This document shows, in pieces, positions 42,001 to 64,000 of a stretch of DNA of 64,000 nt. The position numbers were made by a program. Source of the DNA: Phocaeicola sp. (GTDB lineage: Bacteria > Bacteroidota > Bacteroidia > Bacteroidales > Bacteroidaceae); the NCBI GenBank assembly GCA_041814865.1, contig JBGXXU010000151.1:15160-79159 (forward strand), read 5' to 3'. Every line of letters begins with the position of its first letter. Within the stretch, counting starts at the first letter, position 1.

Positions 42001-45000
42001 GTAGTCTTGCCCCAAGGATTTGGGAAATCTTTGCCCATCAAAATCACACCGCCACGAGGACCGCGCAAGGTCTTGTGTGTGGTAGAAGTAACGATATGTG
42101 CGTATTTCACAGGGTTTTCGAGCAATCCTGCTGCAATCAATCCTGCAGGGTGTGCCATATCCACCATGAAGATAGCTCCTATTTTGTCTGCTATTTCGCG
42201 CATGCGTTTGTAATCCCATTCGCGAGAATAAGCGGAACCGCCACCGATGATAAGTTTAGGACGTTCGCGCAAAGCTACTTCTTCCATTTGGTCGTAGTCT
42301 ACACGTCCCGTTTCCTGAGAAACATTGTATTCGCAGGGTGTATACAGAATACCGGAAGTATTCACCAACGAACCATGCGAAAGGTGACCACCGTGTGCAA
42401 GGTTCAATCCCATGAACTTATCGCCGGCATCGAGAACAGCAAGAAATACTGCGGCATTGGCTTGTGCACCGGAGTGAGGTTGTACGTTAGCCCATTCGGC
42501 ACCGAAGATTTCTTTCAATCTGTCGATAGCCAACTGTTCTGTTTTATCCACTACTTCGCAACCGCCGTAATAGCGTTTACCGGGATAACCTTCGGCATAC
42601 TTGTTGGTAAGACAAGAGCCCATGGCTTCCATTACCTGTTCGCTCACGAAATTTTCGGAAGCTATCAATTCGATACCTTTTAATTGTCTTTCGCGTTCTT
42701 CTGCAATCAACTCGAAAATGCGTTCGTCTCTTTTCATGTTTGATATTTTTAGGGTTAATGTAAATCTCTTTTAGAGGTCACAATTTGACAGTCAAAGGTA
42801 AAAACTATTATCGGATATGTATATATCAGGTATCTTTTTTTCGCTCCCGCTCTCCTTCGTGCCTTATTATCATTATATGTTTTTTATTCTTTTATAAATA
42901 GAAAGAAATATATGATGATGATATACCGTTGATAGTAGATATAAATAATCGGCGTTTTGTTTTGATATGAAGTTATCATTATCGAGGTGTGAGATATGAC
43001 AGAATTATACACTATGTTTATTGCTGTGAAATAAGGAATTACGTTACTTATCAACCGATAGTTGAAAACCTGTTTTGTTGAAAAAAAATCTCTTTTTCGT
43101 TGTGGATATGTACATGAATTTCGGTGAATAAAATGCAGGAATACTTCTTTATTTCCCGTTTGGTTGTTTGCGAGAGACTGCGATATGAATGTTTTCGTTT
43201 TATATCCAAATTATATAGCTATATGATATTGATTATCTATCGACAAATTATTCATGCTTTTTCGACCGTTTTCAATGGATAGTATTGAAAAGTCGCTTTT
43301 TTTTGATGAAAGAAAAAGACGTCTACGATGCCTTCTCGATGCGATTATGATGTTAACATTCTTTAACGCTGTTGCTATCGCGATAGCAACATGTTCTTAT
43401 CGCGATGACAACATGATGCTATCGACTTGACAACATGTTGTTATCAAATCGGCAATATATAGCTGATTTGAAGTGCTAAGTTCGGGAGTTAATAAGGTAC
43501 GGGGAGGAATGTTTTGCAAAGCGGAGTCGGCAGGTTGAGGAAATACTGCCTATCTTTGTTTCTCCTTATAAAAAGACAAAATGGAAATGAGAAAGCTGAA
43601 AATAACGGAAATGAATCGCTTGTCCGTAGACGAATACAAAGAAAAGGACAAGCTGCCATTGATAGTGATACTGGACGATGTACGCAGTTTGCACAATGTA
43701 GGTTCCGTGTTTCGTACTTCGGATGCTTTCTTGGTAAAAAAACTCTATCTCTGTGGGATAACTGCTGTTCCGCCTCATCCTGAAATGCACAAGACTGCGC
43801 TCGGAGCAGAGTATTCCGTCGATTGGGTGTATGTGAAAGATGCAGTGGAAGCCGTTGATACGTTATCGAACGAAGGTTATACCGTTCTTGCCATAGAGCA
43901 ATGCGAGGGCAGTACGCTGTTGACGGAAATGGAGATAGACGCGTCGAAAAAATATGCCATCGTCTTGGGAAACGAAGTGAAAGGTGTGCGTCAGGAAGTG
44001 GTAAACAAGTGTCACGGCTGTATAGAAATACCGCAATACGGTACGAAACATTCGCTCAATGTATCTGTTGCCGCAGGGATATTGATTTGTCACTTGTCCA
44101 CAGCATTGATGAAAGGGTAAGAGACGGTGAGAAAACAGTTGTCACGGTGTTGATAACTTCTTTATAATTGTCCGGCTTCCACACGTATTACGATGTGTTC
44201 TATCATTCTGTCTTCTTTTTCGGGATGATATTCTTTTTTCAGACTGGCACCGAACAACGAAGCAAAGGCTTGATAAAAAAAGGCTTTGAACGAACCCATG
44301 AACGCTTTCACCAATTCGTAACCCGAAGAGTGCGTTTGTCTGTTGACAAGTTTGATGAGTAATTTTCCTTGCGAGAAAGTGAGCTTCTTCAAGCGTGGTG
44401 TGTACTGTTTTTTCAATCCTTTTTCCACTTCTTTTATATGTGTCTGCCGTGCTTTTTCGTTGGGCAAGGTTTCGAGATATTCGTAGGTTTCTATGATGAT
44501 GGTGTTTATTTCTTTGGCGATGGGCAATACCTTTTTCACATCGCGTACCAGCTTGTCGAACTTTTTCTTTTCCTTTTCGTTCATGAAACGCCATGTAGAG
44601 TAAACATTGACTTGTGGCATTGTTATGCTCGGTATATATTCTCCTTTATATTCGGCAACAGGAACAAGAAAACCTCCCGGCACCACTTTGATAGAGGTTT
44701 CTTCTTGTGCGTTACCGGAGATAATACATACCGATACGAACAATATAGCTATCCATAATCTGCGCATCATGATGTAGCAAATGTAAAAATAATATCGGCT
44801 GTGTGCGAGGTGTGTATATATATTTATCCTATAGTTGAAGATATTAACGTATGATACTATGTTCAAAACATGGCTTTGTGTCTTGCTTTTTTGTTGCGCT
44901 CGGACGGTATATGCACAAGACGGAATAGGCGAATGGCAAAGTCTGTTCATAGACGATGAACAGGAAATGTACAGAGTCGCAGATTACGAAGAATTGTCCG

Positions 45001-63000: not shown

Positions 63001-64000
63001 GCGTTCGGAAGACAGTCTGTTGAGAAACATTCCTGCCGAAGAAATCGTTTCGAAAGATGTGTACGATGCTGCGGTGCAAGGCGACAAGCTGGCTCAGGAT
63101 ATTTTCGATTATACAGGCAAGATATTGGGCGAAGCATTGGCAAATGCCATCGCATTCTCAAGCCCCGAAGCCATTATTCTTTTCGGAGGTTTGGCACGTT
63201 CCGGCGATTATATCATGAACCCCATCAAACAGGCTATCGAAGAAAATGTGCTGAAGATATATCAGGGAAAAACGCAAGTCGTGCTTTCGCAACTGAAAGA
63301 TGCCGATGCGGCGGTGCTCGGTGCCAGTGCATTGGGTTGGGAAGTAGGAAAAGCCACTACGGCATAACGCTGCCCGAATAACAAACAACATAGCGGCAGC
63401 ACACATACTGCCGAAATCGTCTATCCGCTCCGATATGCACATCGGAGCGGATATTTTTTCTGTTTTTCTTGTTCGCAAAAGACTTCTCCTTGTATCTCGT
63501 CAACTCAAAAACTTAGCACTTCGAACTTGACTATATATTGCCCATTTGATAGCAACATGTTGTCAAGTCGATAGCATCATGTTGCTATCGCGATAAGAAC
63601 ATGTTGCTATCGCGATGACAACAGCGTCAAAGAATGTTAACATCATAATCGCATCGAGAAGCCGTTATAGAGCCGTTTTTTTTTGCTTCAAAAATGATTT
63701 TTTCAATGTTTTCTCGGAACAATAAAAGCATATGTTTGTCCGCTTCGTACACAAAAAAGCCATCACGTCATACGAAATAGCGTACAAGACAACATCGCAC
63801 ATTTTGCAAAGAAGCAAACACGAAGTTCTATCTTTCACGGCAAAGAGAAAGTATGAATCTGTCGGGTTCGCATGGCAAACTCACATTTATGGAGTAATTT
63901 TGACACTGTCCATACGACAAAATGGCACAACTACCTTCTGGCATGAAATTCGCAAGAAAGGAGGTATAAATTAAAAACAGTAATACATTAGCACATAAAA

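What the first reader, a model, noticed from the sequence alone, without database searches (positions are those of the whole stretch)
43285..63715. Unannotated repeat family: four intergenic copies in 20 kb of a tandem array of 22-bp palindromes
Seen: each copy has a near-invariant 38-bp leader CTTCTCGATGCGATTATGATGTTAACATTCTTT(G/A)ACGC followed by four abutting 22-bp units. The units derive from the perfect palindrome TGTTGCTATCGCGATAGCAACA (arrays at 43370, 51410, 55300 and, inverted, 63536-63623), and conservation decays from unit 1 to unit 4. Dyad centres (TCGCGA, ACATGT) alternate every 11 bp, about one helical turn. There are no spacers, no transposase and no obvious terminal repeats. 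All copies are in core chromosome; I saw none in the 41-kb ICE. Inference: this is either a REP/BIME-like mobile repeat with an unknown mobiliser, or a phased binding array for a nucleoid or segregation protein. The units share TGTT...AACA ends and a CG centre with canonical parS, and the copies lie next to the probable oriC.
Basis: partly seen in the sequence, partly recalled or inferred. Interest (0 to 1): 0.85.

Follow-up and report, generated by a model that had tools for sequence, protein, structure and literature searches.

The report
High-copy palindrome-core intergenic repeat family
The four look-alike stretches belong to a family of about 300 small non-coding repeats that makes up 3.6% of this pig-associated Bacteroidota genome; it is a new family of a known kind of bacterial repeat, not a site tied to the replication origin.

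Summary
Four copies lie at 43287-43512, 51331-51571, 55221-55440 (+) and 63482-63731 (-). Each has an identical 33-nt leader stretch and 3.5-4 abutting 22-bp dyad units.

They are not local. The 2.135-Mb draft genome holds 305 core-bearing copies and about 85 fragments, 3.6% of its bases. Copies are evenly spread, intergenic and on both strands, and many contigs end in one. This refutes the origin-linked or parS-like reading.

All four window copies are truncated. The full-length form is 348-351 bp with a sharp 5' end. A 14-bp near-palindrome (TGYATAWWTATRCA) sits at both ends, and the 5' end is a hairpin with 19-bp arms. No target duplication was found.

No transposase of four families tested is in the draft, which lacks contigs under 2.5 kb.

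The family was not found in 107 congeneric or 400 same-family genomes, and has no Rfam match.

BrickBuilt of P. gingivalis is an architectural analogue, not a relative.

The core (end of the leader plus units 1-2) is 96-97% conserved, against 72-85% elsewhere. This suggests constraint on the core.

Verdict: a new family of MITE/BIME/BOX-type repeat with an unknown mobiliser. Moderate interest.

The parts
43287..43512 (+). Copy 1, short form (consensus positions 114-337). Leader stretch 43332-43369, four 22-bp units 43370-43457, tail to about 43512. Lies between the divergent glyA (41457-42737, -) and a SpoU-type methylase gene (43581-44120, +).
48780..48849 (+). Solo fragment of the family's 5' extension (consensus positions 40-109) with no leader or array. 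In two other metagenome runs, contigs run on from 48833/48845 into a leader, so this locus differs in structure between strains.
51331..51571 (+). Copy 2, short form (consensus positions 117-355). Leader stretch 51372-51409, array 51410-51497, then a tail ending in a small hairpin. Lies upstream of a methyltransferase gene (51684-52412, +).
55221..55440 (+). Copy 3, short form (consensus positions 117-335). Leader stretch 55262-55299, array 55300-55387, tail.
63482..63731 (-). Copy 4, inverted short form (consensus positions 88-335). Leader stretch 63624-63661, array 63536-63623. Lies downstream of a ROK-family kinase gene (62384-63367, +).
1..41285 (.). Context only. A CTnDOT-type conjugative element (TraM, TraJ, TraG, relaxase, coupling protein, tyrosine integrase) ending beside a tRNA gene (41212-41285). 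It carries no copy of the family and is part of a 58-kb copy-free stretch of the contig.

Best explanation
The four stretches are members of a lineage-restricted, non-coding, non-autonomous repeat family that multiplied through the intergenic space of this genome, presumably moved in trans by an enzyme not present in the draft.

Shown:
- The full unit is about 350 bp. It runs: a 5' hairpin (a 14-bp near-palindrome, GAAAA, a variable 6-8-nt loop, TTTTC, the near-palindrome again); an extension of about 80 nt; the leader; four to four and a half abutting 22-bp dyad units; a tail; and the same 14-bp near-palindrome followed by GAAAC.
- About one third of copies are full length.
- The rest, including all four in the window, are cut short at scattered 5' points and carry other 3' ends.

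Inferred:
- With hairpin ends, a razor-sharp 5' boundary and no target duplication, movement is more likely by a single-strand (HUH-type) or site-specific recombination route acting on the terminal near-palindromes than by a classical DDE cut-and-paste transposase.
- The leader-plus-array core changes 4-8 times more slowly than the rest of the same copies. It is therefore under constraint, most simply as the part an enzyme or DNA-binding protein recognises, or as a hairpin or cruciform that must fold.
For: Copy number and spread:
- blastn finds 303-305 copies at about 86% identity to the consensus, plus about 85 fragments. Together they cover 77,241 bp, 3.6% of the assembly.
- Copies per contig follow contig length. 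155 copies lie within 300 bp of a contig end.
- In three DNA metagenome runs from three studies, the bins holding a copy are about two orders of magnitude deeper than the unique flanks.

Placement:
- The 190-bp core overlaps no ORF in 200 of 274 copies. Where an ORF of 250 aa or more is touched, it is by at most 72 bp (8 copies).
- Convergent, divergent and tandem gene settings number 32, 39 and 77, as expected for unselective intergenic placement.

Discrete unit:
- 33 copies intact at both ends measure 347-351 bp, with one at 369 bp.
- Identity jumps from background to 98-100% at the first T-G of the 5' near-palindrome.
- All 172 genomic occurrences of that 14-mer lie inside family members or at contig ends.
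- Hairpin-type 5' ends go with the near-palindrome type of 3' end (37 copies), and short forms go with other 3' ends.
- The arms of the 5' hairpin are 85% conserved and its loop 56%.

Other points:
- No target duplication of 3-6 bp at any offset up to 45 nt, compared with shuffled pairings.
- Lineage restriction: not found in 107 congeneric or 400 same-family genomes, apart from 20-30-nt matches to the simple tail motif. Absent from the conjugative element (58 kb without a copy; about 7.5 expected from the rate, my calculation).
- Structural difference between strains at 48780-48849.
- Core constraint: leader end, unit 1 and unit 2 are 0.962, 0.968 and 0.962 identical, against 0.72-0.85 elsewhere. 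When copies are found by the 5' hairpin alone, 37 of 40 still have a core at least 90% identical, while their extensions average 72% and their tails 77%.
Against: - No mobilising gene was found. Y1_Tnp, DDE_Tnp_1, IS110 DEDD and TnpB profiles all give nothing in the draft. However, the draft is 90% complete and has no contig under 2.5 kb, so insertion sequences would have been lost.
- No clean empty-versus-filled site was recovered, so movement is inferred and not seen. The one strain difference looks like a deletion or truncation rather than a new insertion.
- Copies are about 14% from the consensus, so the expansion is not recent.
- There is no replication-strand bias (37:38 for full-length copies). 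An IS200/IS605-like single-strand route would be expected to leave one.
- Unlike typical MITEs, the most conserved part is internal, not terminal.
Confidence: 0.75

Rival explanations
1. Origin-linked centromere-like or nucleoid-organising array: the palindromes are parS-like sites loaded by a ParB variant or similar protein around oriC.
For: The units share TGTT/AACA ends and a CG centre with parS. The half-sites recur every 11 bp, so they lie on one face of the helix. Four copies lie within 20 kb, beside a region that another first-stage note proposed as oriC.
Against: There are about 305 copies spread evenly over 168 contigs, with chi-square below its degrees of freedom. The local density is about the genome mean. 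From established knowledge, parS sites number a few to about twenty and cluster near the origin. The array never occurs apart from the leader and tail of a dispersed repeat.
Confidence: 0.02
2. Host-recruited binding platform: whatever spread the family, the core is now kept because a host DNA-binding protein (a nucleoid-associated or global regulatory protein) occupies the alternating 8-bp palindromes ATCGCGAT and AACATGTT throughout the chromosome.
For: The core is 96-97% identical in copies whose flanks have drifted to 72-85%, and this holds under core-independent ascertainment. The two 8-bp palindromes are near-invariant, while the 3-nt spacers between them vary and flip. The phasing is 11 bp.
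Against: No candidate protein was identified. The same pattern arises if only copies with an intact core keep being copied (master-copy effect), or if gene conversion favours the most similar segment. The hexamers are not unusual outside the family. There is no enrichment in any gene-orientation class.
Confidence: 0.15
3. RNA-level element: the copies act when transcribed, as long hairpins that end transcription or stabilise or destabilise neighbouring mRNAs, as proposed for REP, BOX and BrickBuilt.
For: One copy folds better than its shuffles, with z = -3.5 as RNA and -2.8 as DNA. Full-length copies lie antisense to neighbouring genes 51:24, which suggests that the sense orientation is selected against. 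BrickBuilt parts showed promoter activity in E. coli reporters (PMC4596501).
Against: There is no Rfam match above chance. Within-unit dyads are imperfect in the main haplotype, and pairing partners do not covary beyond expectation. There is no excess in convergent gene settings or deficit in divergent ones. No Bacteroidota-type promoter consensus was seen by eye in the consensus (inference only).
Confidence: 0.1
4. Classical MITE: a deletion derivative of a DDE-type insertion sequence. The 14-bp near-palindrome, which starts with TG and ends with CA, serves as the terminal inverted repeat.
For: The 14-mer at the two ends matches itself in inverted orientation at 13 of 14 positions. TG...CA termini are typical of IS3/IS21/Tn7-type elements (established knowledge). 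The size and lack of coding capacity fit.
Against: No target duplication at any offset. The conserved GAAAC and a decaying loop-like stretch extend beyond the 3' 14-mer, and the 5' end carries a second copy of the 14-mer as a hairpin. No DDE transposase is in the draft. The 14-mer is found nowhere outside the family.
Confidence: 0.12

Closest known systems
BrickBuilt MITE-like element of Porphyromonas gingivalis (Klein et al. 2015, PMC4596501)
   Same: Same phylum (Bacteroidota). [quoted passage not shown] It is strictly intergenic, restricted to one species group, has no Rfam match, and breaks assemblies.
   Different: - Its unit consensus is an unrelated, non-palindromic 23-mer.
- It has IS5-type termini (GAGACC...), which are absent here.
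- It has 19 copies, 0.44% of the genome, and 1-23 units per copy. Here there are about 305 copies, 3.6% of the genome, and an almost fixed number of units.
BOX elements of Streptococcus pneumoniae and BIMEs (mosaics of REP units) of enterobacteria
   Same: High-copy intergenic mosaics built from a few module types, with a repeated middle module and alternative end modules. They have hairpin-forming potential and no transposase of their own (established knowledge; review PMC10969869 listed).
   Different: No sequence relation was tested or expected. REP units carry a GTAG or CGTC tag and are partnered by a RAYT gene (PMC3733652). No such tag stands 5' of the palindrome here, and no Y1 transposase was found.
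IS200/IS605-derived palindrome-associated elements (PATEs)
   Same: Like hairpins near both ends on the same strand, no inverted-repeat-plus-duplication signature, and small size.
   Different: No TnpA (Y1) or TnpB in the draft. There is only a weak base preference 5' of the left end (C at -3 in 61%) rather than a fixed target word. There is no replication-strand bias.
parS / ParB centromere sites
   Same: A palindrome with TGTT...AACA ends and a central CG.
   Different: Here the unit is 22 bp rather than 16 bp, with a different inner sequence. There are hundreds of evenly spread copies, always embedded in a longer repeat.

Membership tests
BrickBuilt (P. gingivalis) | Tandem 23-nt unit matching the published degenerate consensus | tested here: not met
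   The published consensus (read) is unrelated to the 22-bp dyad unit found here.
BrickBuilt (P. gingivalis) | IS5-type terminal inverted repeats (GAGACCTTYGCA) | tested here: not met
   No match at the ends of the full or short consensus. Only chance-level internal matches with 3 edits.
BrickBuilt (P. gingivalis) | Leader, spacer-less tandem array, tail; intergenic only | tested here: met
Classical MITE | Terminal inverted repeats | tested here: inconclusive
   A 14-bp near-palindrome stands at both ends of full-length copies. It reads as both an inverted and a direct repeat. The 5' end has two copies of it as a hairpin.
Classical MITE | Target-site duplication | tested here: not met
   33 copies intact at both ends were tested for k = 3-6 at offsets 0-44. 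None exceeded shuffled pairings.
Classical MITE | Parent insertion sequence with the same ends in the genome | tested here: inconclusive
   The end motif occurs only inside the family and no DDE_Tnp_1 gene was found. But the draft has no contig under 2.5 kb and is 90% complete.
REP/BIME with RAYT | Y1 (RAYT) transposase gene in the genome | tested here: not met
   PF01797 gives no match in the draft, while the control genomes respond. The draft is incomplete.
REP/BIME with RAYT | 20-40-bp imperfect palindrome headed by a GTAG or CGTC tag | tested here: not met
   The base run before unit 1 reads GACGC, so neither strand has the tag 5' of the palindrome (read; definition from PMC3733652).
IS200/IS605-derived PATE | Subterminal hairpins on one strand; no inverted repeats or duplication | tested here: inconclusive
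   The 5' hairpin is clear. The 3' end keeps only one arm plus a loop-like stretch. No duplication.
IS200/IS605-derived PATE | Orientation bias with respect to replication | tested here: not met
   GC-skew sign in the element strand is 37:38 for full-length copies and 90:118 for all copies.
parS / ParB centromere | Few copies clustered around the origin | tested here: not met
   About 305 copies, evenly spread.
Any Rfam RNA family | Match at the family's gathering score | tested here: not met
   Across the window only a tRNA passes. Over one copy, the only matches are sub-threshold chance hits.

The most novel reading that the evidence does not exclude
The alternating 8-bp palindromes of the core are kept in hundreds of copies because a dedicated protein binds them. 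This could be either the unknown mobilising enzyme, of a type that leaves no target duplication and works on near-palindromic ends, or a host chromosome-organising protein that has taken over a selfish repeat as its genome-wide binding platform.
Probability: 0.15. Interest if true: 0.65.

Novelty: new member of a known kind. Interest (0 to 1): 0.35.

Why it matters
One repeat family makes up 3.6% of a small genome and is the main reason its assembly is fragmented, so anyone binning or closing genomes of this pig-associated lineage will run into it. It adds a second leader-array-tail repeat family in the Bacteroidota, unrelated in sequence to BrickBuilt, which suggests that this build arises repeatedly. 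The unusually conserved internal palindrome core and the absence of target duplications give two concrete, testable handles on how such orphan repeats are moved and why they are kept. For the scan itself, the result removes an apparent origin-linked signal.

Tried and rejected
- RNA evidence. One RNA-labelled run (X12) was laid on the window. The data are contigs only. Bins with a copy are 5-15 times deeper than their neighbours, against about 100 times in the DNA runs. Contig depth cannot show transcription of the copies or rule out carried-over DNA, so nothing is concluded.
- Empty sites. No joint skipping any of the four window copies was seen in the four runs. Contigs stop at the copies, so this says nothing either way.
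- Restriction-site idea. TCGCGA, ACATGT and GTTAAC are not avoided outside the family.
- SOS-box idea. The terminal 14-mer with its flanks resembles the E. coli CTGT-N8-ACAG box. The LexA-like repressors described for Bacteroidetes target other motifs (PMC8565304), so this was dropped.
- Rare-variant test for selection. It was uninformative because recurrent changes among 300 copies swamp singletons. It was replaced by the hairpin-anchored ascertainment test.
- Collection scans. The genome-collection scan with the leader gave one contig, in a MAG labelled Porphyromonas sp., with a single copy at its end and nothing else shared with this genome. It may be a mis-binned contig. The metagenome scan with the 5'-hairpin arm gave one locus of a different organism that shares only 30 nt and has no transposase beside it.
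- Organism name. It could not be obtained. An exact look-up of the SpoU-type protein found nothing. The tools show only that it is a Bacteroidota with type-IX-secretion sorting domains, found in pig oral and gut metagenomes from nine studies.
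Full report
**What is at the stated coordinates.**
- The 33-nt leader stretch is present exactly four times in the window, three times on the + strand and once on the - strand, with none expected by chance.
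- Each leader is followed at once by period-22 tandem units (Tandem Repeats Finder: 3.5 copies, 72-84% matches, no indels).
The other units differ by two or more bases.
- An alignment of the four copies shows that the likeness extends beyond leader and array into a tail of about 70 nt.
- Aligned to the family consensus, the copies span 43287-43512, 51331-51571, 55221-55440 (+) and 63482-63731 (-).
- All four are intergenic, next to ordinary housekeeping genes: glyA, a SpoU-type methylase, a methyltransferase, pckA, enolase and a ROK kinase.

**It is a genome-wide family.**
- The window's own assembly is a 2.135-Mb, 168-contig draft, 90% complete, 44.7% G+C, with no contig under 2.5 kb.
- blastn finds 303-305 copies that include the core, at about 86% identity to the consensus, plus about 85 fragments. 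Together they cover 77,241 bp, 3.6% of the assembly.
- Copies per contig follow contig length (chi-square 82 on 167 df). 155 copies sit within 300 bp of a contig end, so the repeat is what breaks the assembly.
- In contigs of three DNA metagenome runs from three studies, bins that hold a copy are about a hundredfold deeper than the unique flanks.

**Anatomy.**
- Anchoring on the invariant part of the leader and reading outwards shows a modular build.
- The full-length form measures 347-351 bp in 32 of the 33 copies intact at both ends; the other is 369 bp.
- It starts with a 14-bp near-palindrome (TGYATAWWTATRCA). This is followed by GAAAA, a variable 6-8-nt loop, TTTTC and the near-palindrome again, giving a hairpin with 19-bp arms.
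- Then come an extension of about 80 nt, the leader, the array, the tail, and once more the 14-mer followed by GAAAC and a stretch that decays over about 15 nt. That stretch looks like a worn copy of the loop and the start of the second arm.
- The 5' boundary is razor sharp. Identity rises from background to 98-100% at the first two bases.
- All 172 occurrences of the 14-mer in the genome lie inside family members or at contig ends.
- Hairpin-type 5' ends go with the 14-mer type of 3' end. Short forms go with at least two other 3' ends.
- About a third of copies (91 of about 245 scorable) start at position 1-10. The rest start at scattered points between positions 20 and 170.

**The array.**
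- It is best described as two near-invariant 8-bp palindromes, ATCGCGAT and AACATGTT, alternating every 11 bp and separated by 3-nt spacers that take a few alternative values.
- In the commonest haplotype (90 of 211) the spacers within a unit are not complementary, so the perfect 22-mer is a minority form.
- The spacers of unit 1-left and unit 3-right, and of unit 1-right and unit 3-left, do match. The array can therefore fold as one long hairpin centred on unit 2.
- The strongest association between half-sites is a swap of the two spacers that flank the first ACATGT centre (19 of 211 copies). This equals an inversion of the 14 bp between two TCGCGA centres. It agrees with another first-stage note on this stretch and is what template switching within a hairpin would produce.
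- The unit number is almost fixed. Of 361 arrays, only six have four or more good units, and one has six.

**Placement and orientation.**
- The 190-bp core overlaps no ORF in 200 of 274 copies. It touches the ends of long ORFs only marginally.
- Convergent, divergent and tandem gene settings number 32, 39 and 77, as expected for unselective placement in intergenic DNA.
- There is no replication-strand bias: 37:38 for full-length copies and 90:118 overall.
- Full-length copies lie antisense to the surrounding genes 51:24.

**Signs of how it moves.**
- No 3-6-bp target duplication appears at any offset.
- The left flank shows only a weak preference, C at -3 in 61%.
- Profiles for Y1 (RAYT/IS200), IS4/IS5 DDE, IS110 and TnpB proteins find nothing in the draft, although the named control genomes respond. 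Because contigs under 2.5 kb are missing, this is weak evidence.
- At 48780-48849 the window holds a solo piece of the 5' extension. In two other runs, contigs continue from there into a leader. Strains therefore differ in structure at a family locus, but the difference looks like a deletion or truncation rather than a fresh insertion.
- My reading is that hairpin ends, a sharp 5' end and no duplication favour a single-strand or site-specific route. I hold this loosely.

**A constrained core.**
- Identity to the consensus is 0.96-0.97 for the last 29 nt of the leader and units 1-2, and 0.92 for units 3-4.
- It is 0.85 for the terminal 14-mers, 0.81 for the first part of the leader and the tail, and 0.72 for the extension.
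- Because copies had been collected through their core, I repeated the test on copies found by the 5' hairpin alone. 37 of 40 have a core at least 90% identical (23 at least 95%), while their extensions average 72% and their tails 77%. The other three lack the core altogether.
- The difference is therefore real. It can come from selection on each copy, from only core-intact copies being copied further, or from biased gene conversion. These cannot be separated here.

**Range.**
- The family was not found in 107 genomes of the same genus or in 400 genomes from 35 genera of the same family. The only hits were 20-30-nt matches to the simple tail motif.
- It is absent from the CTnDOT-type conjugative element at 1-41 kb (TraM, TraJ, TraG, relaxase, coupling protein, integrase beside a tRNA gene). 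That element is part of a 58-kb copy-free stretch where about 7.5 copies would be expected, consistent with later arrival of that DNA.
- The organism carries type-IX-secretion sorting domains and occurs in pig oral and gut metagenomes from nine studies.

**Comparison with what is known.**
- BrickBuilt of P. gingivalis has the same leader, spacer-less array and tail build. It is also intergenic, species-restricted and without an Rfam match (PMC4596501).
- Its 23-nt unit and IS5-type ends are unrelated to what is here. It has 19 copies with 1-23 units each.
- The family here is therefore an analogue, not a member. It also fails the defining tests for REP/RAYT, parS and classical MITEs (see the membership table).
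- No Rfam family matches.
- It is best filed as a new family within the known kind of high-copy modular intergenic repeats (BOX, BIME, BrickBuilt).

Noticed in passing
whole genome G000 (e.g. window 1-64000): GATC is almost absent: 173 occurrences in 2.135 Mb against about 7,100 expected from a maximal-order Markov model. This suggests strong restriction pressure on that word.
   Followed up: no
window 43370-43457, 51410-51497, 55300-55387, 63536-63623 and family-wide: The 14 bp between two TCGCGA centres is found in either orientation in different copies (flipped in 19 of 211), as if flipped by template switching in a hairpin.
   Followed up: partly
L003:1430-1535 and L004:1495-1610 (two congeneric genomes): Runs of a 7-8-bp periodic motif (AACTTGT / GAGTT type) sit directly upstream of a start codon and next to a hairpin. 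They resemble the tail module of the family. Similar 20-30-nt matches occur in five further genomes of the same family.
   Followed up: no
L009:5150-5890 (same locus in L008, L010-L012): A different organism, with a Cleaved_Adhesin-domain protein gene nearby, has a non-coding region of about 2 kb. It holds four copies of the 14-bp near-palindrome, including a hairpin-like pair that shares 30 nt with the family's 5' end, but none of the leader, array or tail.
   Followed up: partly
window 48780-48849: A solo fragment of the family's 5' extension lies just before a strong hairpin at about 48850-48890, between the SulP transporter and enolase genes. Other strains carry a longer element here.
   Followed up: partly
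G000 contig C46, from about position 1440 (+ strand; about 300 nt past the copy anchored at 1143), and contig C25:8143: One locus has the tail module plus a hairpin module repeated in tandem at least twice. One copy has six array units instead of four.
   Followed up: no
window 18509-24382: A 1,957-aa ORF inside the conjugative element combines N6 DNA methylase, Eco57I-type methylase and helicase C-terminal domains.
   Followed up: no
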